Positions 3,232-56,424 of a DNA stretch of 64,000 nt are shown here, one piece after another (position 1 is the first letter of the stretch; the number at the start of each line of letters is the position of its first letter). The notes under the pieces were generated by a model. The model was not told the DNA's origin. It saw only the letters and a program-made list of their open reading frames with translations, and searched no databases. Position numbers and translations under genes: made by a program. Location of the stretch: the IMG/VR virus record IMGVR_UViG_3300005096_000137, positions 64,001 through 128,000 of that record; one strand, written 5' to 3'. The stretch is from a virus.

Positions 3232-3902
3232 ATGTGATCACAACTCCCATGACGCTCCCTGATGAAGCAAATAATAAGGTGAATGCTGATTGCCGTTCCT
3301 TCACAGAATCAATGGAGGGTAAGGGGCAGTCCCTGGAGTACTACGAAGAGAATCGAGCTGCCTGGGACCCCTGGTATGATGTCTTTGTGGGTAAGAAAGC
3401 AGAGTACTTTGCCAGCCTCTACATGACATACAAGAAGGACTACCCATTGGTGTACCCAGATGTGTCGGTCCGTCAAGGATACCGGAAGGGGTGGGGCTTT
3501 GATTTAACATACGAAGACCTTCCCTCCGTGCATGTCAAGTCTTGTACTCAGCGGACAATCGATAGTGTTGGTGACTACAGTTGGACATGGCAGTGGAAGA
3601 ATCAACATGATGACGGCGGTCGGGACAGGGTATTTACGCAAGAAGAGCCTGGTCTTGTGGTCTGTGTGTTTCTCCCGAGTCTATCTGCACCTACTGCGGA
3701 TATTAAATTGGTGCTGCCCACTGAGATGATGTTGGAGAAGGTCCGGGATCCAAAGAGCACAACACACATCGGTTTTAAGAAGTGCTTGTATTTTGCTGAT
3801 TTCAGTAACGACCCACTTCCACCCCGATACAAAGACATTTGCAATAGTCCCACACTATCCAGTGCTGATCTCGATGCAATGATTGGAGGACTCGGCGTAT
3901 GA
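3222..3902 (+). CDS. hypothetical protein, possible PD-(D/E)XK-type nuclease
   Basis: GKKAE...PD...DL...VHVKS pattern. Confidence 0.45.
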   Translation: MELNVITTPMTLPDEANNKVNADCRSFTESMEGKGQSLEYYEENRAAWDPWYDVFVGKKAEYFASLYMTYKKDYPLVYPDVSVRQGYRKGWGFDLTYEDLPSVHVKSCTQRTIDSVGDYSWTWQWKNQHDDGGRDRVFTQEEPGLVVCVFLPSLSAPTADIKLVLPTEMMLEKVRDPKSTTHIGFKKCLYFADFSNDPLPPRYKDICNSPTLSSADLDAMIGGLGV

Positions 3903-4690
3903 CACTATCCCGCCGAAAACTACTCAAGGGCCTTGGGCTCAGCGGATTGAGCCTGGCTGTCTGTGTGGGTACGAAAATGACCCTCCCCATAGCTCAGTCG
4001 GAATCCCCCGACCCAACCCCTGAACCAACTCCTGAACCAACTTCTAAGAAGGGGTCTCGGGGGTCCATCAAGGAAATAGAAGCCCACATCGACGACTGCT
4101 GCATACCAAAGGCAACGCCCAAGCCGTCAATTGACGAACTTGTCGTGGACCACCTCGACCATAGTTTGGTGTCTCAGGAGACTGTGAACCAGGTTGTGAA
4201 GCAAGGTATTGAGGACACCAGGGCGGACCGGGAGCAGGGTCTTGAAGAGCTGGCGAAGCAGATCACACTGGTGGCGGAGCAGCAGGCATGCGAATGGGAG
4301 CAGAAGAAACATGAGTGGGAGCGACGTCGGGACCAGGAACGTCAGATGCAGTATCAAAGCAGTCAGTACCATACCAGGAGGTACCCACAACCTGATGGAC
4401 CTGATGGACCTGATCCACATGGTTTTCACTATGAAGAAATGGGATCAATTGATACCGTGTTGGGGCAACGCTTCACTACGTGTCAAGCGCCCCTATTTGA
4501 CATTAACTGCTTTCGTGATGACTCCGTACGGATGCTCCCTAACACCTACAAGGAATACTTTGTACGAAAGGTGGTCACGATTGTCGGCGAATCGGCGTGG
4601 GGTCCAGTCGTAGAGGATGAGTCGGTCCCTTGTGGGTATCGAGTTGCTTATCCAACTGAAATGGGTTTAGAAAGTGAGTACACACGGTGA
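3899..4690 (+). CDS. Tat signal peptide protein
   Basis: N-terminus SRRKLLKGLGLSGLSLAV, then a PTPEPT linker and coiled coil. Confidence 0.7.
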   Translation: MTLSRRKLLKGLGLSGLSLAVCVGTKMTLPIAQSESPDPTPEPTPEPTSKKGSRGSIKEIEAHIDDCCIPKATPKPSIDELVVDHLDHSLVSQETVNQVVKQGIEDTRADREQGLEELAKQITLVAEQQACEWEQKKHEWERRRDQERQMQYQSSQYHTRRYPQPDGPDGPDPHGFHYEEMGSIDTVLGQRFTTCQAPLFDINCFRDDSVRMLPNTYKEYFVRKVVTIVGESAWGPVVEDESVPCGYRVAYPTEMGLESEYTR

Positions 4691-5218: not shown

Positions 5219-5986
5219 ATGACAATTTCACGACGTGGTATGCTACGGGCTCTAGGGCTGGGTGGTGCAGGGCTGGCACTTGGGGCTCACAAGGGGTTGG
5301 CTAATCTACCTGCCCTGGTTGATGCAGGTTCAGATACAAAAGACTTACCTCAGACCCTCGAAGCGATCCAGGACCTCGCGGACGCGGCAGAGGTGTGTTC
5401 TACAAATATGGGCAAGGCTTGGAAGCCCATTAAGTTCCGGAATGAGACACAACTCCCACCCGAGTCTATTCTTCCTGATTCCCCAATCAGCTTTCACATC
5501 CCAGATGCTGATAAGTCCAAGGCGCTCCAGGGACTTGTGGATGACTATCTCATCCCAGGGTTGAAATACCCGAAAACGACTCACCATGACCGGCATCTGC
5601 TAATGACGTTCTCCACACCGGTTGCTGTTGATACCGGGGACAGAATCAATGCCACCTTCCCAGGCGGGAAGCGCAACTTCGATATCCTCGCCAGAATCAC
5701 AGCCATTGGTGTGACGTGTGCTGGTGAACTGGCGATTGACGATGAAAGTGCCGATGGTGGCGTAAGGGTGGCCCGTTGTTCGGAAGTCACATCAGGAACA
5801 CTCCAGGCGTCTGATGACCCCAAAATGGATGTGGCTCTCGCTAATTTCAACCGGCTGGGTGCCGAGAACTTGACACCCGGAGAATGGATGCTACTGTATA
5901 GTAGGGCTCCGGGTATTCTGGATCCCTTTCATCCTAGTAACTTTCCTAATTCCAAGACTCTCGGCGAATTTGACGAGCGTTACTAA
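5219..5986 (+). CDS. Tat signal peptide protein
   Basis: SRRGMLRALGLGGAGLALGA. Confidence 0.7.
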   Translation: MTISRRGMLRALGLGGAGLALGAHKGLANLPALVDAGSDTKDLPQTLEAIQDLADAAEVCSTNMGKAWKPIKFRNETQLPPESILPDSPISFHIPDADKSKALQGLVDDYLIPGLKYPKTTHHDRHLLMTFSTPVAVDTGDRINATFPGGKRNFDILARITAIGVTCAGELAIDDESADGGVRVARCSEVTSGTLQASDDPKMDVALANFNRLGAENLTPGEWMLLYSRAPGILDPFHPSNFPNSKTLGEFDERY

Positions 5987-7871: not shown

Positions 7872-8507
7872 GTGTTGAATCGACGTGACTTGTTAAAGAT
7901 GTTCGGCGTGGGGGCAGTCTCAGCCACCATCCCAGCATCCCTCTCTCGGGCTGTGGTTCCTAAGAACGAGATTGTTGAGGTGCCTTGGCAGGAACCTCCT
8001 GAGGCGGCACCCTTTGGGTTCGCTGACCCTCCCCCGAAACCAGATGAACTGGATGACCTGGTTGAGAACCTGCCCGTCCCGGCTCCCGTCGATGCAGTTC
8101 ATGAGAGCCTCAGGGGTCAGGGGTTAGTCAGGCTGGATGAACATGGTGTGGTTACGTTTCACAACACCAATACTGACGAGAAGGTACATCTCAAAATACA
8201 CGAGGGTTCCATGGCCTATGGGCAAAGTATGGATGTGCAGTTTAGTCATGACCGAGGTCGACTGACTGTGCCGAATGCCAGCCATGGTCCCCTAGAGGTC
8301 AGTTTGTACGCACGTATTGCAGAAGTGGTCTCCCCTAACCCTGGTTGGCTTCAGACAATTCGGAGTGCAGGTCCAGAGGGCCTGGATATGATCATCTCGT
8401 TGCCGAACTCTGACCTACTGGTACTGTTTTCCAGGTTGGTGTACCAGTCGATGTCTCTCGACCCCAAAGAAGGGCTATTTGAAATTGAAGGGGTATGCTA
8501 CAATTGA
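7872..8507 (+). CDS. Tat signal peptide protein with probable tail-tube-like domain
   Basis: NRRDLLKMFGVGAVSA, Pro-rich linker, beta-rich domain (LKIHEGSMAY...DRG.L...PLEVSL...FEIEGVC). The tail tube assignment is inference. Confidence 0.6.
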   Translation: MLNRRDLLKMFGVGAVSATIPASLSRAVVPKNEIVEVPWQEPPEAAPFGFADPPPKPDELDDLVENLPVPAPVDAVHESLRGQGLVRLDEHGVVTFHNTNTDEKVHLKIHEGSMAYGQSMDVQFSHDRGRLTVPNASHGPLEVSLYARIAEVVSPNPGWLQTIRSAGPEGLDMIISLPNSDLLVLFSRLVYQSMSLDPKEGLFEIEGVCYN

Positions 8508-10891: not shown

Positions 10892-10896
10892 CCAGA

Positions 10897-33575: not shown

Positions 33576-34084
33576 TGAATACCATAAATAGCCACTCAAT
33601 TGTCCAGGTAATTGCGGAGAGGTTCCACAAAGGTCAGCCAGTGCTCTTTGAACGCCTCAAGGACATGGTTCCTTGCCATTCTTCTTTTGACAAACTGACT
33701 GACGCCCTGGGTTGTAGTGAGCAACCATGTGCTAGTGTGCTCCCCACTGATGAGAGAACGTTCAAGGAAGCAGCATTCGGTATGACATTTCATTCGGTGG
33801 GAGAGCCAACCGGCGGGCATCCCTCTTGTTTTGAATACACACGGAGCCAGCAATCTCTGGAGGAGATGGTGGCCCCCTACCACACCAAGTTCGTGACCTA
33901 TTGCAAGCAACACTTTCAAGCAGCCCAGAATGCCAGGACTGTCAGTAGCAACATTGTTTCGATACTCACCCTCTGGGGGAGTGCAGTTTGGATGGACAGG
34001 ACGGGTAAGATTGTTACTGACAACCAGTTCCGTGGTATCCTGAACATGAACGTGTTGACAGATAATTTACTTGACAGGCAGTAG
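33575..34084 (+). CDS. hypothetical protein, PxHS family paralog 3
   Basis: SIVQVIA...KGQPV...VPCHSSFDKL. Confidence 0.7.
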   Translation: MNTINSHSIVQVIAERFHKGQPVLFERLKDMVPCHSSFDKLTDALGCSEQPCASVLPTDERTFKEAAFGMTFHSVGEPTGGHPSCFEYTRSQQSLEEMVAPYHTKFVTYCKQHFQAAQNARTVSSNIVSILTLWGSAVWMDRTGKIVTDNQFRGILNMNVLTDNLLDRQ

Positions 34085-34099
34085 TCTATGGTGTACACT
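34071..34099 (+). promoter_or_regulatory. sigma70-type promoter heading the five-gene Tat operon
   Basis: TTGACA-17-TACACT. Confidence 0.8.
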
Positions 34100-34126: not shown

Positions 34127-35062
34127 ATGCTTGATCGTCGTGTATTTCTAAAGACCCTAAGCGCTGGTGCAATTGCGGCTATCCATGCAGCTAATGCAGC
34201 TAATGCAGCTAATGCAGAGACACCCCCGCTACCTCACTCTCACCCACTCCCACGTCCACAGTTTATCTGCCTTCCAAAGCGGTTCCCGGAGCCCCCAAGA
34301 CAAATTCACATAGGTCCTCGAAAAGGAAAGCATGCGCCACGCCTCTGGCAAGTCCCACAAGGTTGGTTTAAGTATCGGGACCATAAACTACTGGGCACTT
34401 GTGGCGCTGGCAGTACCACAGAAGAGGACATCGGGACCTTTACAGCAGGTCCCGGAGAAGACAAGCTTCAGTACCGTTTTGGCAAGACCCTGGAGTGCGA
34501 CGGTTTTATGCGAATAGGTGCCAGTCACACTGGTTGGACAAATCCCATATTCCTCCTGGCAGTTCATGACGGACCTGTTGTTGAATTCGGGTGTTACGGT
34601 CGCCAACCCGGCGATCTGGCGTTGGAATTGGGGTCCCGTCCATACTATCACCCCTGCTCGTTTGTCTCAGTGTTCCGACCCAATAGTCCACTACCTGATG
34701 ATGGTCACTACGAGACCACGATTGATTGGGACCTAGGTTCCCAGAAGGCAGACCCATACAAAACTGCCCTTCGCTTGAATTTTGCATACGAACATTACAG
34801 TCTTTCACGATCCCAGCGGATGGCTGATTTCGTGATGCCTCCTCGAATGCTGGCTTTTGAATATGACAATGATGCGTATGATGCAATTATGTATGCTATG
34901 GATAGTTACAAGGTTGCTCCCACCCAGGGCTTCCGGATATCAAGCCACGGGTACAATTTCCAACTCTCTACCCGAAATCCACCAGTCCTGGCTCAGAATT
35001 ACGCAATACAATCAGCCAGTGCCATGCGAGGCAGTCCAGTATGCTTAGACGAGACTTCCTAA
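34127..35062 (+). CDS. Tat signal peptide protein, paralog family member A
   Basis: DRRVFLKTLSAGAIAA with ANA repeats; G..+.CDG and P+FL+A+.+GP+VE motifs. Confidence 0.75.
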   Translation: MLDRRVFLKTLSAGAIAAIHAANAANAANAETPPLPHSHPLPRPQFICLPKRFPEPPRQIHIGPRKGKHAPRLWQVPQGWFKYRDHKLLGTCGAGSTTEEDIGTFTAGPGEDKLQYRFGKTLECDGFMRIGASHTGWTNPIFLLAVHDGPVVEFGCYGRQPGDLALELGSRPYYHPCSFVSVFRPNSPLPDDGHYETTIDWDLGSQKADPYKTALRLNFAYEHYSLSRSQRMADFVMPPRMLAFEYDNDAYDAIMYAMDSYKVAPTQGFRISSHGYNFQLSTRNPPVLAQNYAIQSASAMRGSPVCLDETS

Positions 35063-35634
35063 AGGCAACGGGCGCGAGCCTAGCACTGTCAAGCATGGCA
35101 GTTGCTGGGCTCCCGGTGTTGACACCACCACCAAAATGCAAACCTATACCCCAGTACCTGGAACTGTTCCAGCCATACCATCGCCGACTCGACGGTGTAA
35201 AACCTGGTCAGTTCTTTACGTACAAGGGTCATTGGAAACAAGTCGAGAGTTACGGAAGTGAAGTACGTTGTGACGGGTACATGTACCTGGGTGATCGTTT
35301 GATGCCACCAAAGAATCGATGGTCCATTGGAGATGCACCAGTGTTTTTGATTGCACTCACTAATGGTCCCATTGTTGAATTGGTAGGCGACTGCTTGGAA
35401 GACCCAGCATTCGCGAAACTCCTGGGACCAATAACTCACCCGTACCCATTTGAATTGTACACCATGATGAACGAGGATGTGCTGTCCGACTTCACATGGT
35501 ATTATGCGGACGTCACACAGAATGCGTGCGAAGAAATGACTTATGGTTCACCCAGCTACCTGGACGTTGAGTCCAGAATGCAGAAGGTGCGAAGTTATTA
35601 TAACATTGACGAGCACGGTATGGTTCAGAAATAG
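35041..35634 (+). CDS. Tat signal peptide protein, paralog family member B
   Basis: LRRDFLKATGASLAL..AVA; GSEVRCDG, PVFLIALTNGPIVE. Confidence 0.78.
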   Translation: MLRRDFLKATGASLALSSMAVAGLPVLTPPPKCKPIPQYLELFQPYHRRLDGVKPGQFFTYKGHWKQVESYGSEVRCDGYMYLGDRLMPPKNRWSIGDAPVFLIALTNGPIVELVGDCLEDPAFAKLLGPITHPYPFELYTMMNEDVLSDFTWYYADVTQNACEEMTYGSPSYLDVESRMQKVRSYYNIDEHGMVQK

Positions 35635-35644
35635 GGGATTTCAG

Positions 35645-36475
35645 ATGGACAGACGCGGATTTCTAGGCAAGCTTGGTATTGGGGTAGCAGCGGCTGGTGT
35701 TTTGGGCCGTGAGGCTATCGCGCGGATTCCCAAGGAGACCAAGAAACTTCCCAAGGAGCTATTACTACCTCCCGAGAAACTCACCTTGGCTGAGGTGACC
35801 ACTGCTGAGGTGACCACTGCTCTCAAGAGTAATTTCCCGGGGTTTGTGGACCAGGTTTCAAATACCGCGACAAAAGTTCCCCGCCGGTTGCCCACTCACA
35901 TTGCCCACCACCTCTACCCAGACAATGGTTTGTACCTCCAATTGATGAACTGCGATCACCATGTCCCTAACAAACGTTACGGTAAATACCGATCGGGAGA
36001 ATACGTGATCCAGAGTATCAATGACCCACCTGGCTTACAGGTCCTTGGTTCAGAGTTTACCATTGATGGCGCTGCCATGGCAGGTTATGTGGCGGTACAC
36101 AGTCCAACGGGGATTATATCCGAGGACCTAAAGAGTCCATTGTTCACTGATTTCCAACTCATGGCCAAGCGGAACCCACTCGACTATCATGTTGGCTGTG
36201 TCATGTGGTTAGCCCTGAGGAATGGTCCAGTGGTTGCATATAACTTCTTGAACAAAGCCCAACATCGGTGTGCCCGTACCCTTCGAGGCTCTCAGGACGT
36301 TGCATATCCTTGGTGTCTACAATCACGGGAATTTCGCAACAATGTGGGTGTGAATCACATTCGCTTTTATTACATGGCTGTGGCTGGAACTACACACGAA
36401 CCCCGGACTACACCCGAATCAATACGTGAGAGATTTGTGGAAGAAGGTATGTCTAACCCTGGAGAATTACGATGA
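35645..36475 (+). CDS. Tat signal peptide protein, paralog family member C
   Basis: True start MDRRGFLGKLGIGVAAAG after AGGGG RBS; YLQL, GSEFTIDG, WLALRNGPVV. Confidence 0.78.
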   Translation: MDRRGFLGKLGIGVAAAGVLGREAIARIPKETKKLPKELLLPPEKLTLAEVTTAEVTTALKSNFPGFVDQVSNTATKVPRRLPTHIAHHLYPDNGLYLQLMNCDHHVPNKRYGKYRSGEYVIQSINDPPGLQVLGSEFTIDGAAMAGYVAVHSPTGIISEDLKSPLFTDFQLMAKRNPLDYHVGCVMWLALRNGPVVAYNFLNKAQHRCARTLRGSQDVAYPWCLQSREFRNNVGVNHIRFYYMAVAGTTHEPRTTPESIRERFVEEGMSNPGELR

Positions 36476-37275
36476 GTTTGAATCGACGCGGCTTTCTTGG
36501 ATTCCTTGGACTGGGTGCAGTTGCTGCTGGAGCAGCATCTATTCCAGCCAAAGCTTTGGCGGGCGCCAAGGACGTGCTCCCTGAGTCTTTATTGACAGAG
36601 GTCTCAACCCCTGAGGCTCTTGTGCCCCACCAAGGGGCTCACTTAGACCCCACCACGGATTACCCTCACATACTCCGCTTGGTCCATGGGAATAGCCATT
36701 GGGCACGCCGTGGGCAGGCTGAGGCTGGGGACTGGATTACCCATGCGTGGAGGTCCAAGCAGTGTGTCTCCCATGGTCGCCGTCTGAGGTGCATCGGGTT
36801 TCGACATTTGGGCGATGTCGCCTTCCACTTCCACGAGCTGGAAGCAGGCACTGTGACAGACAAGTACACAGATCCGGATAGTCCAGAGTTCAAGGAGGTT
36901 GTCCAGAAGGCAGGCGAGTCCCGAGTCCCTTATGGTGTCAGTCATTATGCCTGGGGACCCCGCTATTCCATAACCCTTGTAGGTATTGGAGCTGTCGAAT
37001 TCACGGGGTTGAACCGGAGCAACCGGGGGTTTATGCGGCAGGCGATGGGCAAGCGGACCTCTTGTGACGCATTCACACTGGTGTCCCAAAAGGTGGTTCA
37101 CTCAACTGGCGGAACCTGGTTTAAGCCTACGATGGAATTCATTGATTCAAATGAGAGTAAGCTGTGGACACCCAGCTTAACTCAGCGAGTTGGAAAGAGT
37201 CAAATCTCCAAGTTCGCCAACATGTCCTCAACCCAGTTTGAATCAATGTATCGTGATGACAGGGATATGAGATGA
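36472..37275 (+). CDS. Tat signal peptide protein, paralog family member D (putative phage SSB-like domain)
   Basis: NRRGFLGFLGLGAVAAG..ALA; LRL...S, DPDSPEF, WGPRY, TWFKP. Confidence 0.75.
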   Translation: MSLNRRGFLGFLGLGAVAAGAASIPAKALAGAKDVLPESLLTEVSTPEALVPHQGAHLDPTTDYPHILRLVHGNSHWARRGQAEAGDWITHAWRSKQCVSHGRRLRCIGFRHLGDVAFHFHELEAGTVTDKYTDPDSPEFKEVVQKAGESRVPYGVSHYAWGPRYSITLVGIGAVEFTGLNRSNRGFMRQAMGKRTSCDAFTLVSQKVVHSTGGTWFKPTMEFIDSNESKLWTPSLTQRVGKSQISKFANMSSTQFESMYRDDRDMR

Positions 37276-38288
37276 ACAACCGACGTGATTTCTTAAAGAC
37301 ATTGGGACTTGGAGCCGCTGGGGTTACCCTGGTGGGTCGGCAGTTGTTGGTAGGGTCTCCTAAGGGTGTCCCCTCAGTCAAACTCCCACCAATTAGGGCT
37401 CTGGGGAGTGACTCACTTCCGGTTGATCCCCCGAGGATTGAACTTCCACCAGTTGGAATGACCTACCCTACTCAGGATAACCTACTGCCCTCAATGTGGG
37501 CAGTCAGTGCTCAGAGACTCCTTGAACAGAATCTGGTCATGGGTAATCTGGTTCACCGGGATTGTAGCGACGAGGTGTCACAGTTTGGGGACATAATCAA
37601 TTTGAGAAGCCCTGGCTGCAATATCCCAATACCACTGGACCAGCTTTTCTCCACACACTTTGTCATCAGAGATGGGGATGCCTCCAAGTCCTTTCAAGAA
37701 TTAAGGGAGCAATACCTCCGCCCGAGTATCCAAAAGCTTGCTCGCCAGATTGACCAGGCACTCATTGGGCAAGCTGTCCACTACACGGATAATACCGTTG
37801 GGGGTCAGTACTCTCTCTATGGTGCTAATGCAACCAACACCATCATTGATGCTCGCCGGAAACTAAACGATAATAGGGCACCCCTCTCTGACCGTAACCT
37901 GGTGTTGTCGACTGCCAGCTCGCAAGCCCTAAAGTGTTCAGAGATACTCCCGGTCATTCGGGATGGGGGTGGGTATCCGCCTCAAATCACTGCTCTCGAA
38001 GAAGCACGTCTGGGAAAGTACATTGGCTTCACCTGCTGGCATGTTCCTGATATGCCGTGGCATATCAACCTGGGTTTCCACCCTGACACAATGGCCCTGG
38101 TCACCCGACCATTACCTCTGGCCCTACCTAGACTCCCCATCCGCTCAGGTATTGGTGTTCACAACAACCTTGCACTCCGGGTGTCAATGATGTATGACGT
38201 GCAGACGTCTGGGACACGGATAACCACGGATGTGTTGGCGGGTATTGGTGTTCTTGACACTAACTTAGGCGTTATCATAGAAGGCTAG
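37272..38288 (+). CDS. Tat signal peptide fused to a P22 gp5-type (HK97-fold) major-capsid-like domain
   Basis: NRRDFLKTLGLGAAG; LVMGNLVHRD...FGD.IN, YLRP....LA.QID, IDARRKLN...AP...R.LVL, GFH..MALVTRPL, LRVSM.YD, DVL.G..VLD. Confidence 0.82.
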   Translation: MNNRRDFLKTLGLGAAGVTLVGRQLLVGSPKGVPSVKLPPIRALGSDSLPVDPPRIELPPVGMTYPTQDNLLPSMWAVSAQRLLEQNLVMGNLVHRDCSDEVSQFGDIINLRSPGCNIPIPLDQLFSTHFVIRDGDASKSFQELREQYLRPSIQKLARQIDQALIGQAVHYTDNTVGGQYSLYGANATNTIIDARRKLNDNRAPLSDRNLVLSTASSQALKCSEILPVIRDGGGYPPQITALEEARLGKYIGFTCWHVPDMPWHINLGFHPDTMALVTRPLPLALPRLPIRSGIGVHNNLALRVSMMYDVQTSGTRITTDVLAGIGVLDTNLGVIIEG

Positions 38289-38295: not shown

Positions 38296-39372
38296 ATGTA
38301 CAGAATAATCAGAGGCGATAATTTGGACTGGTTTGACCAGACCTATCGGAGGTTTGACACCATCTTTGCCGACCCACCTGATAACATCGGGCTGGGGTAC
38401 AATGAGTACGTGGATAAGGTGGTCGCGACCACTTACACCACAAGTCTAAGTATGTGGCTCCATGCCTTTATTCCTCGCGCTGAGACTACCTGGCTGTCCT
38501 TCAATTCCCGATGGTTATTACCGATGGCAGCCATTGCACAGCAGGTGGTTGATAAGTTTGGTGTCGAATTCAAACCCTGCGTCCAGACCTTCAGCTTCTA
38601 TCAGAACAACAAGTTCGACTTGGGCAATGCCCACCGTCCCCTCTGGAGGTTCTGTCATCCTGGGGTCAAGCTGTATCCAGAGGCTGTGAAGGTCCCCTCC
38701 TGGCGTCAGCTCAATGGCGACAAGCGTGCAACCGCCGGCGGGAAGGTCCCGGGCGATGCGTTTGACTTCACTAAGCTTCCCGAGAAGCAACGTCGAGATT
38801 GGCACACCAGAGCGGTTCAGAGCGGCGAGTGGGTCGTGGACGCCCTCATCCCTGATGATCACTTCGATTTCACCCGAGTCACTGGGAATAGTAAACAGCG
38901 TCGAAACTGGCATCCCACCCAATTGGGGGAGGGACTTGTCGAACGGTGCGTCCGGCTGACAACACCCAACGGGGGAACTGTCATGGACCCCTTTGCAGGT
39001 ACAGGTACCACCCTCCGGGTATGCAAGAGCATCGGGAATCTGGATTGCACCCTGGTTGAATTAGATCCAAAGTACTGCCAACATATTGCGGAGGAACACA
39101 ATTTGACTGTCGAAGCAATTAAACAAGAGTTTTGTGCGAAGTGTCACAATACAGACCCAAACAAGACAACAGGAGTCGAGTATGCTTACGGATCACCAGA
39201 CCGATATGATGGCGTCTCTGAATGGCGCTGCGCTGTATGTCATGCCCGCACCGGTCGTTGGTCTGGGAAAGTGCTCACCGGTGGCGAGAAGGAGCGTAGA
39301 TTTGGCGTGGATTATAAAGACCAAGAAACCCTTGAAGACGGAACCACCCTCCAACATAGGTACGAACGATGA
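38296..39372 (+). CDS. beta-class N4/N6 DNA methyltransferase with C-terminal Zn ribbon
   Basis: IFADPPDN (motif IV variant), HPTQ, MDPFAGTGTT, ELDP.YC; CAKC...CAVC. Confidence 0.82.
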   Translation: MYRIIRGDNLDWFDQTYRRFDTIFADPPDNIGLGYNEYVDKVVATTYTTSLSMWLHAFIPRAETTWLSFNSRWLLPMAAIAQQVVDKFGVEFKPCVQTFSFYQNNKFDLGNAHRPLWRFCHPGVKLYPEAVKVPSWRQLNGDKRATAGGKVPGDAFDFTKLPEKQRRDWHTRAVQSGEWVVDALIPDDHFDFTRVTGNSKQRRNWHPTQLGEGLVERCVRLTTPNGGTVMDPFAGTGTTLRVCKSIGNLDCTLVELDPKYCQHIAEEHNLTVEAIKQEFCAKCHNTDPNKTTGVEYAYGSPDRYDGVSEWRCAVCHARTGRWSGKVLTGGEKERRFGVDYKDQETLEDGTTLQHRYER

Positions 39373-42468: not shown

Positions 42469-42643
42469 TGAAACTGATTGTCATGGATTTGGTCCTCCGT
42501 AAATTTGAGGAGGCGAGGTTGGCGGAGATGGATGAGTTAGGCAAGGCTTATGCAGAAGATGCCGACCGTACTTCCCCCGTTTTTCCACAACCACCTCTCC
42601 CTCCCAACCCTCACCCTAAACCCCCTTATTGGAACTTTTGGTA

Positions 42644-43723
42644 ATGTCGAAAACAATAGTTAGCGTCGAACGTGTTAATGCTGTAGAAGCCCATCCCAAT
42701 GCTGATCGTCTGGAAGTTATCCGGGTGCTTGGTTATCAAGTGGTTACCCAGAAGGGTAACTACAAGGTTGGAGACCTTGCTGTATACTTCCCTCCGGATA
42801 TCCTCATCCCGCTTGACGCGGCTGAAGAGTTGGGGGTCGCGAAGTATTTGAAACATGCGATATTTCCGGGTGAGGAAGTTCAGACACAGTGCCGAGTCGG
42901 AGCCACTCGTTTGCGAGGGAAGCCTTCGCATGGGTTCTGTACGCCCACCACCCATGACTGCCGAATACCGGCTGGTACACCCCTTGGGACTAACGTCTCT
43001 GACTACTACAATGCCCACAAGTATGACCCACCGGTTCGGCTTGGCGCTGGAGATGCGGCCAGCCCCTTGGAAGCTTTCCATGGGTATACTAGTATCGAGA
43101 ATGTACAACGATACACTGATGCGTTCCAAGAAACGGATCAGGTAGTTATTACCGAGAAGCTTCATGGCGTCAATTGCCGGTTGGGTCTCATCCGTGACCC
43201 CAGTGGTGAGTACCAGTTCTGCGCTGGGTCCCACAATGTCCGTCGAAAAGAGGGCGGGTTGTATTGGCACTTCATGCAGGAACAGGTCCTCCATATGCTT
43301 ACGTCCCTAGTTGCGGGACGGGATGGTGAACCCTGCCATAACGCTATTATCTTCGGGGAAATCTTTGGACCTGGCATTCAAGACTTGGATTATGGGCGGT
43401 CTGAGAAGTCATTCCGGGTTTTCGACATCTCCATTGATGGCGAGTACATGAACTACTGGGATATGGTGAAACACTGTGATGCCCACCGGCTGAGGTGTGT
43501 TCCCCACCTGTATACAGGTGCCTACAGTGCTGATGTCGTGGAACACCATACCTATGGGGACACCACCTTTGATGACACAAAGAGTACGTTCAAAGGGCGG
43601 GAGGGCTGTGTAGTCCGACCTATCCACGAAGCCTATAGTGACATCCTTGGCGGACGTTTGATTGTGAAGTCAGTCTCAGCCGACTATCGGGACCGTAAGG
43701 GTGCCAAAGACACTGGTGAGTAG
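42644..43723 (+). CDS. RNA ligase, DRB0094/Rnl5 family
   Basis: N-terminal OB HPNADRLE, TEKLHG.N, FGEIFGPGIQ, FDI, REGCV, KSVS..Y. Confidence 0.9.
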   Translation: MSKTIVSVERVNAVEAHPNADRLEVIRVLGYQVVTQKGNYKVGDLAVYFPPDILIPLDAAEELGVAKYLKHAIFPGEEVQTQCRVGATRLRGKPSHGFCTPTTHDCRIPAGTPLGTNVSDYYNAHKYDPPVRLGAGDAASPLEAFHGYTSIENVQRYTDAFQETDQVVITEKLHGVNCRLGLIRDPSGEYQFCAGSHNVRRKEGGLYWHFMQEQVLHMLTSLVAGRDGEPCHNAIIFGEIFGPGIQDLDYGRSEKSFRVFDISIDGEYMNYWDMVKHCDAHRLRCVPHLYTGAYSADVVEHHTYGDTTFDDTKSTFKGREGCVVRPIHEAYSDILGGRLIVKSVSADYRDRKGAKDTGE

Positions 43724-43726
43724 CGG

Positions 43727-43779
43727 CGCATAACTGACGCATAACTGACGCATAACTGACGCATAACTGACGCATAACT
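43727..43779 (+). repeat. 11-bp tandem repeat (CGCATAACTGA x4.8)
   Basis: Read directly; intergenic, just before an RBS. Confidence 0.95.
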
Positions 43780-43791
43780 TCGGAGAGACAG

Positions 43792-44040
43792 ATGGAAATC
43801 GGAGAACTCGTTAAATTCCTCAATGACCGGTGTGTAACCACCAGTGCCAACCTCCCACTCGCTTCCTTTATGAAGGCACTTCGGGACTGGCTCCCGGTGG
43901 GTACACCCTTTGTGTCCATCTCCGAGATGGAGGACATGCTGATCACTACTGGACGGTTTAGGACATCTCAGGTTGGTGGGCGTCTTGTGGTGATCGGGTG
44001 TGCTATTCCGGATGTTCAACGGGACATGGGGAGTTCATAA
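43792..44040 (+). CDS. hypothetical protein
   Basis: GGAGAG RBS. Confidence 0.6.
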   Translation: MEIGELVKFLNDRCVTTSANLPLASFMKALRDWLPVGTPFVSISEMEDMLITTGRFRTSQVGGRLVVIGCAIPDVQRDMGSS

Positions 44041-44093
44041 ACCAATTACCGATCGAGTGATCCCCTTGCTTGACCATGAGGCAGCTCTTTTAT

Positions 44094-44122
44094 TTGACAA
44101 CGGGCAGTTTGTAGTGTAAGCT
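44094..44122 (+). promoter_or_regulatory. sigma70-type promoter (likely leaderless)
   Basis: TTGACA-17-TAAGCT with ATG 6 nt downstream. Confidence 0.7.
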
Positions 44123-44128
44123 TAGGGT

Positions 44129-44428
44129 ATGAACATCAAACAACAAGTCGCAGACTTCGAGAAGTACCAAAAACAACTTAATCAGACCATCATGGTTCAG
44201 CTTGCCGCACGCGCCACGAAGCAGGGCATCACAAGCATGTTGTTTACTGATGGAGTCGGGCATTACCGACGAGGTCACCATCTCGTTCGGGATGTGGACT
44301 TAGACACTCTGGGGTTGTCCTACGTGCGGACAATGGCTCTGGGGTTAACAGACGTCTCTTGGGATCCGAAATACGGCTGGCTAGGTCCTAGTGGCAAAGT
44401 TATCACGTTTGATTCGAGGAATCTATAG
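44129..44428 (+). CDS. hypothetical protein
   Basis: Follows promoter. Confidence 0.6.
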   Translation: MNIKQQVADFEKYQKQLNQTIMVQLAARATKQGITSMLFTDGVGHYRRGHHLVRDVDLDTLGLSYVRTMALGLTDVSWDPKYGWLGPSGKVITFDSRNL

Positions 44429-44490
44429 AAACATGGGGTATCAGGTTTGGATCCACATGGTCCCGATATGCAATGGCTTGAAATAAGCGG

Positions 44491-45066
44491 ATGGAAGATG
44501 ACGGAATGACAAACGAAGATTCACAAATCGTTCACGCAGGTGACCCAGTCTACCAGACCGAGAGTTTGGTGACGTGCGACTTACCACCAGAACCATTGGA
44601 GTCCCACTATGTTGTTGAGAAGGACGTGATGCTCCACCAAATGCTTCAGATGCAACTCATGGAAGTCAAGCACTATGGGAACACACATCTTGCCCAGTAC
44701 AGTGTATCTCAGGCATTCCGACTGATTGGTGATGGTACCGACAAACTGAGCATCCTCTTACACAATTGCAAAGTGAAGCTGTGTTCACAGAGGTACTCGC
44801 TTTTCCAGAACCAACGAGTGTGTGTCAATTGTGGGGTAGAGGGTAAGGTGTTCTGTCTGGATTTACCCCGCTCCGAACGGCAGCGGTGGAACAAGACTAC
44901 CAACCCGCTCCGCGCCCACTTCAATCTGTATGGGATCATGTCCTCGGGTCGGATTGTGATGCTGACCAAGGATCACATCGTCCCCTCGTCTAAGGGTGGG
45001 AAGTGTGTGATGAGTAACTACCAGTGCATGTGTGAAACATGTAACGCAGAGAAAGGTGACCGATGA
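44491..45066 (+). CDS. HNH endonuclease
   Basis: CVNC, TKDHIVPSSKGG, NYQCMCETCNAEKG. Confidence 0.88.
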   Translation: MEDDGMTNEDSQIVHAGDPVYQTESLVTCDLPPEPLESHYVVEKDVMLHQMLQMQLMEVKHYGNTHLAQYSVSQAFRLIGDGTDKLSILLHNCKVKLCSQRYSLFQNQRVCVNCGVEGKVFCLDLPRSERQRWNKTTNPLRAHFNLYGIMSSGRIVMLTKDHIVPSSKGGKCVMSNYQCMCETCNAEKGDR

Positions 45067-45494
45067 AACTTCGCACCCTTCAGAGAAAGCAGATATTATC
45101 GCGGCACCTAGCCCCTGGTAATGTCTACCGGAATCGTCGATATTTACAGACCTTTGAACCCATGTATATCTTTGATTTCCTCTCACGACATGGTGGTAGT
45201 ACCACCTCGTTTCTCAGTGGATATACGGTTCAGATAACTGTGAACTTCAAGCGAGTCTGTGCATCCCCAGTATGTACTCGATGTGGGTGTTGTGGGCTCT
45301 TAGTGAGCCTTGATCACGACTTGTCGAGGGGCTCCTGTAACTTATTACACCTCTACACCCTCGATAGACAAGAACAGCCTGTGATGATGACTATTGATCA
45401 CATTATCCCTAAGCGACATGGTGGTACCAATAACCGTCAGAATCTCCAAATTATGTGTGAAACATGTAACGCGAAGAAGGGGCATATGGTATGA
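45063..45494 (+). CDS. HNH endonuclease (tandem paralog)
   Basis: CTRC, TIDHIIPKRHGG, NLQIMCETCNAKKG. Confidence 0.88.
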   Translation: MKLRTLQRKQILSRHLAPGNVYRNRRYLQTFEPMYIFDFLSRHGGSTTSFLSGYTVQITVNFKRVCASPVCTRCGCCGLLVSLDHDLSRGSCNLLHLYTLDRQEQPVMMTIDHIIPKRHGGTNNRQNLQIMCETCNAKKGHMV

Positions 45495-46399
45495 GCAGTT
45501 TACTTCAACGACTTACGGAAGATGGGTACATCAACCCACCCAAGTACATTGATAATGTGTGCTTTGAAACTATCACCGGTAGCCAGGCATATGGGGTGAG
45601 CACAGATACCAGCGACTGTGATGTGGTAGGGTTCTATATTCCACCAGCCAATATGTTGTTCCCACACTTGGAGGGTCACCTGTTGGGCTTTAACAAGGAT
45701 CCTAAGCCGCCTAAGATATGGCAGCAACACCACATCAGGACGGACCCCGACGGACGTCATAAGGGGAAACACTTCGACATTGCCATGTACCCTATTACAA
45801 CGTTCTTTAAGTTGGCAATGGAGTGCAATCCTAACATCATTGATGTGTTGTATGCCCCTCGGGATTGCATATTGTCATTAACAATGGTGGGCGAGATGGT
45901 TCGGGATAATCGTGACCTGTTCCTCCACCGTGGTGCATGGGTCAAGTACAAGGGATATGCCTACCAGCAACTCCATAAGATGGACATCAAGCAGCCTAAA
46001 GAGGTGAGTGCTAGGTATGCCAGTCATCAGGAGCATGGGTACGACTTGAAATTTGCCTACCACCTGGTTCGGCTCTTGCTGGAGTGCGAAATGATGTTGA
46101 CGGAGCACACCATTGATCTTCGTCGTCACAGGGAACACCTCAAGGGTATCCGACGTGGGGAACATACCTTTGAGTATATCAAGCAATGGTTTGTGGACAA
46201 AGAGAAGTACCTGGAGAGGTGCTACGAAGAATCGACTCTCAAGGATTTACCGGCTCGGGAGTCTATCAAACGGCTTTTGATAGCCTGCCTGGAGCCCCAT
46301 TATGGGGACCTCAGTGCATTAAAGACTGTGCGGGCATCATCCACCCCTGACAGGGAAACTCTTCTGGCTATCCAGGCTCTGTGTGATGGAGTACTCTGA
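45491..46399 (+). CDS. Pol-beta-superfamily nucleotidyltransferase (RlaP/YcgL-like)
   Basis: GSQAYG.ST..SD.D, NPNII..L, GYD.KFAYHLVRL. Confidence 0.85.
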   Translation: MSSLLQRLTEDGYINPPKYIDNVCFETITGSQAYGVSTDTSDCDVVGFYIPPANMLFPHLEGHLLGFNKDPKPPKIWQQHHIRTDPDGRHKGKHFDIAMYPITTFFKLAMECNPNIIDVLYAPRDCILSLTMVGEMVRDNRDLFLHRGAWVKYKGYAYQQLHKMDIKQPKEVSARYASHQEHGYDLKFAYHLVRLLLECEMMLTEHTIDLRRHREHLKGIRRGEHTFEYIKQWFVDKEKYLERCYEESTLKDLPARESIKRLLIACLEPHYGDLSALKTVRASSTPDRETLLAIQALCDGVL

Positions 46400-48486: not shown

Positions 48487-48735
48487 ATGAGCAATCCAAT
48501 TCAAGGCATCAATGCGAATCGACTCCCCCGGGAACCCCTCGAACGGAAGTTTAGTGTTCTCTGGGACCATATAAACGATAGACAGCGGGTGCTCTCATAC
48601 ATTTTGGATAGGTCCCAGGCAAATCGAGGGGATTATAACCCCACCAAAGTTGAGATAGAGGTCGTGGCCACAGTCATTCAGTGGTTAGGGAGCCCTGTTG
48701 GTCAGGGTTTTCTGGCAGATATCCCGACCAGTTAA
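48487..48735 (+). CDS. hypothetical phage protein
   Basis: GAGGAG RBS; ATVIQWLGSPVGQGFL. Confidence 0.7.
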   Translation: MSNPIQGINANRLPREPLERKFSVLWDHINDRQRVLSYILDRSQANRGDYNPTKVEIEVVATVIQWLGSPVGQGFLADIPTS

Positions 48736-48737
48736 CT

Positions 48738-48870
48738 ACACGAACAATTCACACGAACAATTCACACGAACAATTCACACGAACAATTCACACGAACAAT
48801 TCACACGAACAATTCACACGAACAATTCTTCACACGAACAATTCACACGAACAATTCACACGAACAATTC
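48738..48870 (+). repeat. 13-bp tandem repeat (ACACGAACAATTC x10, one TTC insertion)
   Basis: Read directly; intergenic. Confidence 0.97.
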
Positions 48871-48887
48871 ACTACGAGGATTTTGAG

Positions 48888-50288
48888 ATGAGCGACCAAC
48901 CTTACTTGATGATTGAGAACAAGGGTGAAGCCCCAGTAGAGGGATACACCGTGCTTGGTCTGTCCACGACTCGGGGTAGCAAAGCTGATGGAGTAATCGG
49001 TCAGTTTGGCTCCGGAAACAAGCATGCCATCAATGTGTGCCTGCGAAACGGGCTTACCGTCTGGGTCTATTGTGGGACCACTCGCTTGGAATTCAGTACC
49101 CAATCGGAGATGGTGGATGATGGGTTGGTCAAGACTGAGGCACGACATGTTGTGTACCGCAAGGGTGCCAGTGCCTGGAAGAAGACTGGTTGGGTTTTGG
49201 ACATGGGGGTCCTGGACTGGGATAGTGTTGGGATGGGGCTCCGAGAGTTCGTCTCTAATGCGATTGATCGAACTATCCGAGAAGGTGATATAAACAGCCA
49301 GGTCCTTGTCATTAAGACAGTGGACCCCAAAGACCGCCGTGCCCGGGCTGGGTTCACGCGGATCTTCGTGGAACTCAATACCGATGTTCGTCAGTATTAT
49401 GAGGAATTGGGTAGTAATTTCCTTCACTTCTCAGATGATCCCAGCAAAGCTGTCCCCGGTATTCTGGAGAAGACTGAAGAGGGTGGCGCTAAGATTTACC
49501 GCGAGGGTGTCTATGTCCGTGCCCTACGGGAGCCGAGCTTGTTTGACTACAATTTCAGTAAAGATGATTTGCCCATCGACGAATGTCGTAATAGTTCCGA
49601 GTACGTGATTAAGGCCTCAGTCGCGCGGATGCTGGGAAACGCTTCACAGGGTATTATTGAGCAAGTGCTCCAGGAGGTCCAGTGTGAAGGTAATTGGCTC
49701 GAAACTAACTTGGACACCGATTATCTCTTTGGATCCTGTTACACAGACCCGGATGATTCCCAGTCAGAAAGTTGGAGCAATGCCTGGGCTGCGACCGCAG
49801 GTGTTGGCGCTGTTGTGTGTCGTGACTCCCATTCAAGTGGGTTCGTGGAACGCAAAGGTTTATCCCCTGGTGTAGTGAAAGAGGGTTGGTTGAGACCCCT
49901 GTCTAAGGTGGAGGGGGTCCAGACCTGCGACGATGTACTGGATGACGCTGAATCAGCAGGAAAAACAATCACACCTGCGGGGATACTTATTGAGAGTGCG
50001 ATGGATAAAGCCTGGGATGTGTTTGAGAGCGCAGGTTTGACCAGGTACCTTAGTCAGCCTCAGGTGCTGTGCTTTGAGCAAGCGGGGGAAGACGCGCATA
50101 TCGCCGACTCTTACTACTGTGGTGTGGGTAATCTTGTGTATATCAGGTCTCACCTAGCAGGTCCAGAGTGCCACAATGACAGATACCAGGCGGCCATCGG
50201 CGTGTGTGCCTTGCACATCAGTTCAGATGACGGTTGCGAGTTGACACCCGATGATTTGCTCATCAAGCTGGTGGCAGAACTTACTTGA
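48888..50288 (+). CDS. GHKL (MORC/Hsp90-like) ATPase-domain protein
   Basis: IENKG, IGQFGSGNK, LREFVSNAID; GAGGA RBS before ATG at 48888. Confidence 0.7.
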   Translation: MSDQPYLMIENKGEAPVEGYTVLGLSTTRGSKADGVIGQFGSGNKHAINVCLRNGLTVWVYCGTTRLEFSTQSEMVDDGLVKTEARHVVYRKGASAWKKTGWVLDMGVLDWDSVGMGLREFVSNAIDRTIREGDINSQVLVIKTVDPKDRRARAGFTRIFVELNTDVRQYYEELGSNFLHFSDDPSKAVPGILEKTEEGGAKIYREGVYVRALREPSLFDYNFSKDDLPIDECRNSSEYVIKASVARMLGNASQGIIEQVLQEVQCEGNWLETNLDTDYLFGSCYTDPDDSQSESWSNAWAATAGVGAVVCRDSHSSGFVERKGLSPGVVKEGWLRPLSKVEGVQTCDDVLDDAESAGKTITPAGILIESAMDKAWDVFESAGLTRYLSQPQVLCFEQAGEDAHIADSYYCGVGNLVYIRSHLAGPECHNDRYQAAIGVCALHISSDDGCELTPDDLLIKLVAELT

Positions 50289-55483: not shown

Positions 55484-56182
55484 ATGCCACGACCCACGAC
55501 GCCCGTCACCATTAAGCCAGGACATTTCCCTGAGGACGAAGTCCATACACACCCCTCATATGGGGTCATTCAGATATCTCGCATGTCAGGGCAGGCAGAT
55601 TTATTCAATTCGCCAGTGAAGCACCAACACTTCATTGCACTCCGGGTGTCTACCGCCAAGCTCCACACGGATGGTCTCCATGATAATATCTGGGGTGACG
55701 ACCAACTGGTCGAGGTGTACATGTCCGAGAGTCAGTTCGCTCGGGCAATCACGAGTATTGGGATGGGCGCTGGCGCTCCATGTACTATTTCCAGCACCAA
55801 GGACGAACGAATGACGCCCGGGGCAGAGCCCCGAGACCTAGCTGCACAGCAGAAGACCATGATCCGTGACAAGTTTGAGAAGGTCATGGACGGTCAACAG
55901 GAAATTACAAAACAGATGCAGGAGTGGCACACGGCAAAACACCGCCCTACCTTGAAGGAGATGGATGACATCATCCACCGGATGGAGGTCGCCACAGGGA
56001 ACTTTGCAAGTAATACCCAGTTCTACACGGATGCCTACATCGAGCGTATCGAGGGGATTGTTGATGACGCCAAGACGGAGCTTGAAACCCACGCCCTAGG
56101 AGTAGCCGGTAAGCTGGGCATATCGGAAGACCAGTGTCCGACTATTTCGATGAGAAAACCTGAGCCTGGGTTACTCGAATGA
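55484..56182 (+). CDS. hypothetical phage protein
   Basis: HPSYG.I..SR, LF.S...H, EV.MSE.QFA..I.S...G.G.PCTI. Confidence 0.75.
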   Translation: MPRPTTPVTIKPGHFPEDEVHTHPSYGVIQISRMSGQADLFNSPVKHQHFIALRVSTAKLHTDGLHDNIWGDDQLVEVYMSESQFARAITSIGMGAGAPCTISSTKDERMTPGAEPRDLAAQQKTMIRDKFEKVMDGQQEITKQMQEWHTAKHRPTLKEMDDIIHRMEVATGNFASNTQFYTDAYIERIEGIVDDAKTELETHALGVAGKLGISEDQCPTISMRKPEPGLLE

Positions 56183-56424
56183 TACTGTACTTAGTTATCG
56201 TAAGCGACAAACATACGGATGACGAGTATCACGCCCACTCATCTATCGAGGGTGCTCATACAAGGGTCAATGCTTGCCTCGTTGACCTGATAACAACATA
56301 CCAACGAGCGCCCGAGACCATCAAGATTTCACCAAGTGCTAGGTCAGAAGGTTGGCGGTTCCTCGCTGATGATCCACTAGGGGTTTGGCAGGCGGCTATC
56401 AGGGAGATTGAGGTATCCGAATGA
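56179..56424 (+). CDS. hypothetical protein, Y.V...E+EV family
   Basis: LYLVIV...AIREIEV. Confidence 0.55.
   Translation: MILYLVIVSDKHTDDEYHAHSSIEGAHTRVNACLVDLITTYQRAPETIKISPSARSEGWRFLADDPLGVWQAAIREIEVSE

What the first reader, a model, noticed from the sequence alone, without database searches (positions are those of the whole stretch)
37272..38288. Tat-tagged, internally trimmed major capsid protein
Seen: a canonical NRRDFLK signal and Pro-rich linker precede about 270 aa with P22 gp5-family motifs in order. Between GDIINLRSPG and IPLDQ only about 3 residues remain where the long E-loop normally lies. GF...P runs straight into NLGFH, where an insertion domain often sits. Inference: an assembly-incompetent HK97-fold monomer targeted for export, located away from any head genes. 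This is the strongest single piece of evidence for the decoy idea.
Basis: partly seen in the sequence, partly recalled or inferred. Interest (0 to 1): 0.9.

Follow-up and report, generated by a model that had tools for sequence, protein, structure and literature searches.

The report
Export-tagged, trimmed capsid protein copy
A large uncultured phage carries a second, old copy of its capsid protein. The copy has lost the parts that link capsid subunits and has gained a bacterial Tat export signal, so it probably works in the cell envelope rather than in the virus shell, doing something still unknown.

Summary
ORF 37272-38288 (338 aa) starts with a twin-arginine signal (NRRDFLK; TIGR01409 20.4 bits, cut-off 16.7). 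A proline-rich linker and a confident HK97-fold core of the P22-coat family follow (PF11651 41 bits; pLDDT above 90 for residues 70-338).

Compared with 142 homologs:
- The E-loop segment is 7 residues; 120 homologs have exactly 27.
- The roughly 170-aa insertion domain is absent.

It is not the virion's capsid protein. The 148-kb record is cut at both ends and holds no terminase or portal. In close relatives, whose tail proteins are 67-83% identical to this record's, the order terminase, portal, scaffold, 471-aa capsid protein sits directly upstream of the tail genes that open this record.

Nine other Tat-tagged proteins lacking the insertion domain form one clade with this ORF. Where context is known, they lie among nucleic-acid metabolism genes.

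Best reading: an exapted capsid-fold paralog exported by the host Tat system, co-transcribed with four other Tat proteins. Its function in the envelope is unknown, and the "decoy" idea is untested.

This scan has noted Tat-tagged capsid copies before on other phage DNA (e1-5704116, e1-5370870, e1-3266402). I found no published equivalent.

The parts
34071..34099 (+). Sigma-70-like promoter match (TTGACA-17-TACACT) in front of the five-gene Tat block
   Evidence: It is a consensus match only: 8 sites were found in the region against 6.7 expected.
34127..35062 (+). Tat-leader ORF 1 (311 aa), first of four weak paralogs
   Evidence: MLDRRVFLK start; paralogy; no Pfam or PHROG family.
35041..35634 (+). 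Tat-leader ORF 2 (197 aa), paralog
   Evidence: MLRRDFLK start; PF10518 E 0.011; TIGR01409 14.0 bits, below cut-off.
35645..36475 (+). Tat-leader ORF 3 (276 aa), paralog
   Evidence: MDRRGFLG start; TIGR01409 18.0 bits, cut-off 16.7; BLAST match to ORF 4.
36472..37275 (+). Tat-leader ORF 4 (267 aa), paralog; its stop overlaps the start of the capsid-fold ORF
   Evidence: TIGR01409 18.2 bits. A Tat-tagged homolog exists in related phage L010:1178-1987 (32% identity, 4e-18). The AF2 core is weakly OB-fold-like, which is inconclusive.
37272..38288 (+). Tat-tagged, trimmed capsid-fold (HK97 / P22-coat family) protein, 338 aa
37272..37355 (+). Twin-arginine signal peptide, residues 1-28: n-region NRRDFLK, h-region TLGLGAAGVTLVG, c-region RQLLVG. 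Cleavage after G28 is inferred.
   Evidence: HMM matches. The clade-wide c-region pattern (hydrophobic residues, then A/G, then [AGS]-P) is seen. The cleavage site is inference only.
37356..37475 (+). Pro-rich, disordered linker (residues 29-68) in place of the capsid N-arm
   Evidence: pLDDT 42-67 with no secondary structure. Canonical homologs have about 22 residues before P73; the Tat clade has 51-98.
37476..38285 (+). HK97-fold core (residues 69-338): spine helix 141-171, P-domain sheet, A domain
   Evidence: pLDDT mostly above 90. Foldseek top hits are phage capsid proteins (Douge gp8 2.9e-13, Che8, P-SCSP1u, P22 gp5) and encapsulins.
37593..37634 (+). E-loop stub (residues 108-121): short hairpin, about 20 residues shorter than in relatives
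38031..38066 (+). Site where the roughly 170-residue insertion domain of relatives is missing (residues 254-265)
3899..4690 (+). Further Tat-leader ORF (263 aa) elsewhere in the window
   Evidence: MTLSRRKLLK start; no family.
5219..5986 (+). Further Tat-leader ORF (255 aa)
   Evidence: MTISRRGMLR start; TIGR01409 15.1 bits, below cut-off.
7872..8507 (+). Further Tat-leader ORF (211 aa)
   Evidence: MLNRRDLLK start; TIGR01409 14.5 bits, below cut-off.

Best explanation
This is an old, diverged second copy of the phage's own P22-type (HK97-fold) major capsid protein, re-tooled into a substrate of the host's twin-arginine (Tat) export pathway.

Shown:
- The core fold (spine helix, P domain, A domain) is kept.
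- The N-arm is replaced by a Tat signal plus a roughly 40-residue Pro-rich linker.
- The tip of the E-loop (about 20 residues) and the roughly 170-residue insertion domain are deleted.
- The gene is the last of five tightly packed Tat-leader genes in the nucleic-acid-metabolism part of the genome.
- Nine similar Tat-tagged, insertion-less proteins from other uncultured phages form one clade with it.
- Close relatives of this phage have a normal 471-474-aa capsid protein in a normal head module.

Inferred:
- The protein folds in the cytoplasm and is carried across the inner membrane by host TatABC.
- Its signal is cut near G28/S29, or it stays as an anchor.
- The capsid-fold domain then works on the periplasmic side, apart from virion assembly, probably together with the four co-transcribed Tat proteins.
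- Its activity there is unknown. I favour an envelope-side role in the infected cell, such as keeping out competing phages or remodelling or guarding the envelope until lysis, over a cytoplasmic role.
For: 1. Tat leader: matches. The leader is enriched in the record, 8 of 235 ORFs against 0.27 expected.
2. Conservation: RRxFLK is kept in all Tat-clade members although the passengers are only 31-35% identical.
3. One clade: the 10 Tat-tagged proteins form a single clade, nested in a 25-row clade (SH-aLRT 95) among 470-aa capsid proteins.
4. Fold: HK97 fold at high confidence.
5. Relaxed assembly constraints: E-loop length is 27 in 120 of the 142 homologs, 133 of them canonical, but varies from 7 to 28 in the Tat clade. 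The insertion domain is lost in every Tat-clade member. The A-domain loop GDxGTALREAxLGR is conserved in canonical proteins and mostly deleted in the Tat clade. Core residues (P73, W76, R96, D107, F130, D134, P151, D161, R208, R279, R303, D320, G324) stay invariant.
6. Context: Tat-type homologs in L010 and L012 sit between RNA ligase and UvrD helicase, near ArdC, HNH and RlaP genes. This is partly syntenic with this window, and none sits in a head module.
7. Not the sole capsid protein. The record is cut at the left in an ORF and ends at the right in a tandem repeat. It has no terminase or portal. Relatives L019 and L073 carry terminase, portal, scaffold and a 471-474-aa capsid protein directly upstream of homologs of this record's first genes.
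8. No protease seen: no prohead protease was seen among the L019 head-module ORFs scanned, which argues against a protease-cleaved capsid-targeting leader.
Against: - Export is not demonstrated. The host is unknown, and no Tat component is encoded in the record.
- PF10518 scores just under its cut-off, and four of the eight leaders are under the TIGR01409 cut-off.
- The canonical capsid gene of this very phage was not seen; it is inferred from relatives.
- No function is known for an HK97-fold protein outside the cytoplasm, so the envelope role is a guess.
- A similar claim on other DNA, Tat export of capsid-derived decoys, was marked down by a later check in this scan (e1-3266402).
- Most clade members keep a full E-loop, so some self-association cannot be excluded.
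Confidence: 0.58

Rival explanations
1. Exported or export-directed decoy. The trimmed capsid fold mimics the real capsid protein for a host immune sensor. The Tat leader then sequesters the bound sensor at the translocon or carries it out of the cytoplasm, in the way Tat 'hitchhiker' partners are co-exported.
For: - The passenger keeps the conserved core surface of the capsid protein while shedding its assembly elements.
- Several other Tat-leader genes in the phage may be copies of core phage proteins. The OB-fold hint is weak, and a copy of the C-terminus of a structural protein lies next to Tat ORF 3899.
- Tat can co-export bound partners (PaoABC, PMC4273604).
- The scan noted the same design in unrelated phage lineages.
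Against: - No sensor, no binding and no host are known.
- Capsid-sensing defences described so far act in the cytoplasm, where an early-made mimic would be as likely to trigger them as to blunt them.
- The four neighbouring paralogs have no significant match to any phage core protein.
- A later check of the same bold reading on other DNA gave it about one chance in three.
Confidence: 0.15
2. The leader is not used for export. It tethers the protein to the membrane or to TatBC on the cytoplasmic side, or acts as a shared capsid-targeting or scaffolding-type propeptide. The protein then takes part in head assembly as a minor or vertex subunit, or as an assembly or size regulator, like T4 gp24 or the capsid-like Ccm of phage satellites.
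For:
- The core residues shared with canonical capsid proteins are strongly kept.
- Most clade members keep a full E-loop.
- A shared N-terminal peptide on several proteins recalls the T4 capsid-targeting sequence.
Against: - The leader matches the Tat consensus in all its parts: RR-x-F-L-K, a Gly/Ala-rich uncharged h-region and a small-residue c-region.
- No prohead protease was seen among the head-module ORFs of the close relative that were scanned.
- The gene is never in a head module.
- The elements that make inter-subunit contacts (N-arm, E-loop tip, insertion domain, A-domain loop) are exactly the parts lost.
Confidence: 0.15
3. A decaying duplicate of the capsid gene with no function of its own, whose Tat-like start is fortuitous.
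For: It has large deletions relative to the parent family. No near-identical relatives were found: the best is 44% identical.
Against: - The frame is intact at 338 aa and the predicted fold is confident.
- Ten-member clade with the leader and the core motifs conserved at 31-35% overall identity.
- It is translationally coupled to the upstream gene.
- Eight such leaders occur in one genome.
Confidence: 0.04

Closest known systems
Canonical major capsid proteins of this phage lineage (P22 coat family PF11651 / phrog_283), e.g. L019:9956-11371 (471 aa) and P0002-P0008
   Same: 40-47% identity in the aligned blocks, with the same order of motifs and the same HK97 core of spine helix, P domain and A domain.
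   Different: The canonical proteins have no Tat leader, a short N-arm, a 27-residue E-loop segment and a roughly 170-residue insertion domain. They sit after terminase, portal and scaffold and before the tail genes. The window protein lacks these elements and lies among nucleic-acid metabolism genes.
Specialised capsid-protein paralogs: T4 gp24 vertex protein; capsid-like Ccm of phage-inducible chromosomal islands
   Same: A second, diverged HK97-fold copy alongside the main capsid protein.
   Different: Those proteins co-assemble into capsids in the cytoplasm, keep their contact elements and carry no export signal (from my own knowledge; not tested here).
Encapsulins (HK97-fold shells of bacteria and archaea)
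   Same: An HK97 fold taken out of the virion context. Encapsulins are among the structural matches (Foldseek 1.5e-9 to 1e-7).
   Different: Encapsulins are cytoplasmic self-assembling shells with an E-loop and cargo genes with targeting peptides next to them. Here the E-loop is truncated, there is an export signal, and no cargo-type neighbour was seen.
Bacterial Tat substrates and Tat 'hitchhiker' complexes (TorA, hydrogenase small subunits, PaoABC)
   Same: N-terminal S/T-R-R-x-F-L-K leader with a weakly hydrophobic h-region, on a passenger that must fold before transport.
   Different: Known passengers are mostly cofactor-binding redox enzymes or cell-wall amidases. I found no report of a virus capsid fold as passenger in the searched literature.
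Tat-tagged copies of capsid, portal or tail proteins noted earlier in this scan in other phage lineages (e1-5704116, e1-5370870, e1-3266402)
   Same: The same design: a Tat-type leader on an old copy, or a piece, of the phage's own structural protein, placed outside the head module.
   Different: Those involve other capsid families (phrog_2522-like, T4 gp23-like) or only fragments. This one is a nearly whole P22-type core with specific loss of the E-loop tip and insertion domain. They are AI notes, not independent evidence.

Membership tests
P22 coat protein family (PF11651 / phrog_283), HK97 fold | Sequence match above the curated cut-off | tested here: met
   PF11651 41.2 bits against cut-off 24; phrog_283 E 5.6e-26; 831 homologs at E up to 1e-3.
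P22 coat protein family (PF11651 / phrog_283), HK97 fold | HK97 core fold (spine helix, P-domain sheet, A domain) | tested here: met
   AF2 pLDDT above 90 over most of residues 70-338; Foldseek probability 1.00 to phage capsid proteins.
P22 coat protein family (PF11651 / phrog_283), HK97 fold | Full-length E-loop hairpin | tested here: not met
   7 residues against 27 in 120 of 142 homologs; 20-residue gap in the pairwise alignment; only a 6+6 hairpin in the model.
P22 coat protein family (PF11651 / phrog_283), HK97 fold | Insertion domain, present in P22 gp5 and in the nearest 470-aa relatives | tested here: not met
   15 residues at the site against 160-200. Some genuine small capsid proteins of the family also lack it (P0052, P0095 and others).
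Functional major capsid protein of the virion | Gene in the head module next to portal and scaffold; the only capsid gene of the genome | tested here: not met
   The gene lies among methylase and RNA-ligase genes. Relatives have a separate canonical capsid gene in the head module. This phage's own head module lies off the truncated record, so that step is inferred.
Functional major capsid protein of the virion | Assembles into capsomers and shells; present in virions | not testable with these tools
   Needs expression with assembly assays or virion proteomics.
Tat (twin-arginine) export substrate | N-terminal S/T-R-R-x-F-L-K motif with an uncharged h-region, matching curated signal models | tested here: met
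   NRRDFLK plus 13 uncharged residues. TIGR01409 20.4 bits against cut-off 16.7. PF10518 21.8 bits against cut-off 22.7, marginally under.
Tat (twin-arginine) export substrate | Leader conserved among relatives of the passenger | tested here: met
   Nine further homologs carry it. One of them, P0065, has a cut N-terminus and keeps only the h-region, without the RR motif.
Tat (twin-arginine) export substrate | Actual Tat-dependent translocation; a host with TatABC | not testable with these tools
   Host unknown; no TatA/B/E gene in the record.
Encapsulin | Self-assembling shell protein with an E-loop and an adjacent cargo gene with a targeting peptide | tested here: inconclusive
   Encapsulins give structural matches. 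However, the E-loop is truncated, the sequence family is the phage P22-coat type, and the neighbours are Tat-leader ORFs and a methylase. Cargo peptides were not searched for.

The most novel reading that the evidence does not exclude
Phages of several lineages make Tat-tagged, assembly-disabled copies of their own core proteins (here the capsid protein). These bind host factors that recognise the core proteins, then remove or sequester those factors through the Tat translocon by hitchhiker export. This would be an anti-defence strategy based on disposal by export. Alternatively, the exported capsid fold builds a protective layer in the periplasm.
Probability: 0.12. Interest if true: 0.9.

Novelty: new variant of a known kind. 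Interest (0 to 1): 0.62.

Why it matters
The HK97 capsid fold is known from virions, gene transfer agents, satellites and cytoplasmic encapsulins. A conserved clade of capsid-fold proteins carrying a bacterial export signal, and shedding their assembly elements, would be a new use of this fold. It would mean that large phages send folded copies of their own structural proteins to the cell envelope.

It also gives a simple, testable handle on why many uncultured phages carry Tat-type leaders: leader-reporter export, RR-to-KK controls, and knock-outs in a cultured relative.

If the function turns out to be exclusion of rival phages or evasion of host sensing, it would add a new mechanism to phage-host and phage-phage conflict.

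Tried and rejected
Self-association: the test of the mature domain (3 copies, residues 66-338, with alignment) gave no verdict. I draw nothing from it.

Searches for close relatives in IMG/VR:
- With the query: none.
- With P0073: none.
- With P0132: only a canonical capsid gene.
- The 9-sequence Tat-clade alignment was too diverged for a pattern search.

Attempts to extend the record's left end or find the phage's own head module:
- No other contig encodes the first complete gene.
- That gene has no homologs by word search.
- Metagenome records behind L019, L073 and similar loci cannot be searched whole. I therefore could not see whether those relatives also carry a Tat-tagged copy.

Ideas checked and dropped:
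- The 468-aa ORF in L010 is not a capsid protein. It belongs to phrog_8203, like window 48681-50288.
- The Microcystis phage MaAM05 match is a plain 278-aa capsid-type protein without a leader.

The four upstream Tat paralogs:
- No Pfam, PHROG or word-search homologs.
- No profile relation to the capsid family.
- An Atlas lead to tail-tube gp19 scored only 0.78.
- Structure matches to OB-fold SSBs are weak: Foldseek E 0.04 or worse, VIA Z 3-4.5, top Z 6.5 to a PhiC31 gp3 fusion.

Other: there is no gp32-family or TatA-family gene in the record.
Full report
**What is there**

Window 37272-38288 (+) is an intact 338-aa ORF. Its ATG overlaps the stop codon of the upstream ORF (ATGA), and AGGGA lies 6 nt upstream.

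The N-terminus reads M-N-N-R-R-D-F-L-K, followed by 13 uncharged Gly/Ala-rich residues. It matches the Tat signal models: PF10518 at E 1.7e-4 and 21.8 bits (cut-off 22.7), and TIGR01409 at 20.4 bits (cut-off 16.7).

The rest matches the P22 coat family: PF11651 at 41.2 bits (cut-off 24) and phrog_283 'major head protein' at 5.6e-26.

An AlphaFold2 model built on a 143-sequence alignment has mean pLDDT 85. Residues 1-68 are disordered and residues 70-338 are mostly above 90. Foldseek against the PDB returns phage capsid proteins first (Douge gp8 2.9e-13, Che8, P-SCSP1u, P22 gp5) and encapsulins. So a Tat leader, a Pro-rich linker and an HK97-fold core are all real.

**The trimming**

The nearest homologs are roughly 470-aa proteins without a leader. 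One of them, P0004, sits in a normal head-tail module.

Alignment shows three differences in the window protein:
- An N-terminal extension.
- A 20-residue gap in the E-loop.
- Absence of about 170 residues between GF and NLGFH.

Over 142 homologs, the segment between the P114 and L122 equivalents is exactly 27 residues in 120 of them. It is 7 in the window protein, the shortest of all. The insertion segment is 15 residues against 160-200.

The model keeps a 6+6-residue hairpin where the E-loop should be. The loop is therefore truncated rather than wholly lost.

**It belongs to a family**

An exhaustive profile-free search found 831 homologs. Nine of them carry the same kind of leader (MSxSRRNFLK and similar) and also lack the insertion domain. 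One of the nine, P0065, has a cut N-terminus and shows only the h-region.

In a maximum-likelihood tree the ten Tat-tagged proteins form one clade. The window protein is the earliest branch. The clade is nested among 470-aa capsid proteins in a 25-row clade with SH-aLRT 95.

Members are only 31-35% identical to the window protein, yet they keep the RRxFLK motif and the core capsid motifs.

Of 72 columns that are at least 80% conserved in the 133 canonical proteins, the core ones stay invariant in the Tat clade: P73, W76, R96, D107, F130, D134, P151, D161, R208, R279, R303, D320, G324. The parts that change are different:
- E-loop length drifts between 7 and 28 residues.
- An A-domain loop (GDxGTALREAxLGR) is mostly deleted.
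- The insertion domain is gone.

This is the pattern expected if the fold is under selection but the inter-subunit contacts are not.

**It is not the virion's capsid protein**

The window is bases 64001-128000 of a 148,427-bp virus record. The record is cut:
- Its first ORF is open at the 5' end.
- Its right end is an 18-nt tandem repeat.
- No ORF matches a terminase, portal or other capsid family.

The record opens with tail genes; the tape measure is at 7539-11405.

A metagenome scan with the Tat-clade alignment returned mostly canonical capsid genes. In many of those loci the capsid gene is followed by homologs of this record's first genes:
- In L019 the tail proteins are 67-83% identical to ours. 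Upstream lie terminase (phrog_675, 6e-83), portal, adaptor, scaffold and a 471-aa phrog_283 capsid protein.
- In L073 the homologs of our first four genes follow a 474-aa capsid gene after one small ORF.

The relative's terminase and portal have no match in our record. Its capsid protein matches only the Tat ORF, in three blocks that skip the E-loop tip and the insertion domain.

The real capsid gene of this phage therefore almost certainly lies just beyond the record's left end. That step is inferred, not seen.

**Context**

The ORF is the last of five tightly packed or overlapping ORFs (34127-38288) that all begin with a Tat-type leader followed by a Pro-rich stretch. A promoter-like site precedes the first, but this is weak evidence. 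A DNA methylase follows.

Three more Tat-leader ORFs lie at 3899, 5219 and 7872. In all, 8 of 235 ORFs carry such a leader, against 0.27 expected from shuffled N-termini.

The four upstream ORFs are weak paralogs of one another. One has a Tat-tagged homolog in a related phage, L010:1178-1987. Their fold is unresolved; there are weak OB-fold-like matches only.

Tat-type capsid homologs in L010 and L012 lie between RNA ligase and UvrD helicase, near ArdC, HNH and RlaP genes. This is partly syntenic with this window, and never in a head module.

**Mechanism**

Shown: the anatomy, the family, the relaxed assembly elements and the position outside the structural genes.

Inferred: the protein folds in the cytoplasm and is exported by the host Tat system. 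Its signal is cut near G28/S29. The clade shares a c-region of hydrophobic residues, then A or G, then [AGS]-P. The capsid-fold domain then works in the envelope together with its operon partners.

What it does there is unknown. I favour an envelope-side role in the infected cell.

Rivals:
- A decoy for host sensors, possibly using Tat hitchhiker export (PMC4273604).
- A non-export role of the leader in head assembly.
- A dead duplicate.

No prohead protease was seen among the ORFs I scanned in the relative's head module, which weakens the capsid-targeting-peptide idea. The self-association test gave no verdict.

**Comparison and novelty**

By sequence and fold this is a member of the P22-coat/HK97 family, but it fails the features of a working capsid subunit: E-loop, insertion domain and head-module position.

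It differs from T4 gp24 or Ccm-type paralogs and from encapsulins by its export signal and by the loss of contact elements.

Three full-text literature searches found no description of a Tat-tagged capsid-fold protein.

Earlier notes of this scan describe the same design in other phage lineages, and one bold 'exported decoy' reading was marked down on later checking. These notes are leads, not evidence.

I rate it a new variant of known kinds, of moderate to high interest, with the function open.

Noticed in passing
whole record (G000:C1 1-148427); L003:3-938; last ~80 bases of the record: The record is rated 100% complete by CheckV but is cut. Its first ORF is 5'-open, its right end is an 18-nt tandem repeat (TCCAATCCGGACAGTCCA), and no terminase or portal is present. 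Relatives place the head module just before the record's first genes.
   Followed up: yes
window 34127-37275: Four weakly paralogous Tat-leader ORFs of no known family lie here. One has a Tat-tagged homolog in related phage L010:1178-1987. The AF2 core (residues 65-225, pLDDT about 80) gives only weak OB-fold/SSB-like matches, and its top VIA match is a PhiC31 gp3 fusion at Z 6.5.
   Followed up: partly
window 4687-4929: An 80-aa ORF directly after Tat ORF 3899-4690 is 49% identical to the C-terminal 74 residues of the record's first ORF, a 5'-cut structural-type protein. A related domain also occurs in the 375-aa tail protein and in genome ORF 55986-56711.
   Followed up: no
window 38296-39372: This N6/N4 DNA methylase has a C-terminal extension holding two CxxCH-like motifs. 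These give weak, sub-threshold cytochrome-c-type hits and are more likely a zinc ribbon.
   Followed up: no
genome 12377-20218 (L003): Eight consecutive paralogous genes (five of about 300 aa, three of about 365 aa) lie after the tape measure. They have tail-fibre-like N-termini (phrog_8469) and form a large cassette of receptor-binding-type paralogs.
   Followed up: no
window 42629-46399, 48681-50288; genome 135656-137191: The phage carries an RNA-repair set: RNA ligase, an RlaP-type nucleotidyltransferase and RtcB, plus the Ro60/Y-RNA locus noted by other readers. It is partly syntenic with L010, which also holds a phrog_8203 protein of unknown function.
   Followed up: no
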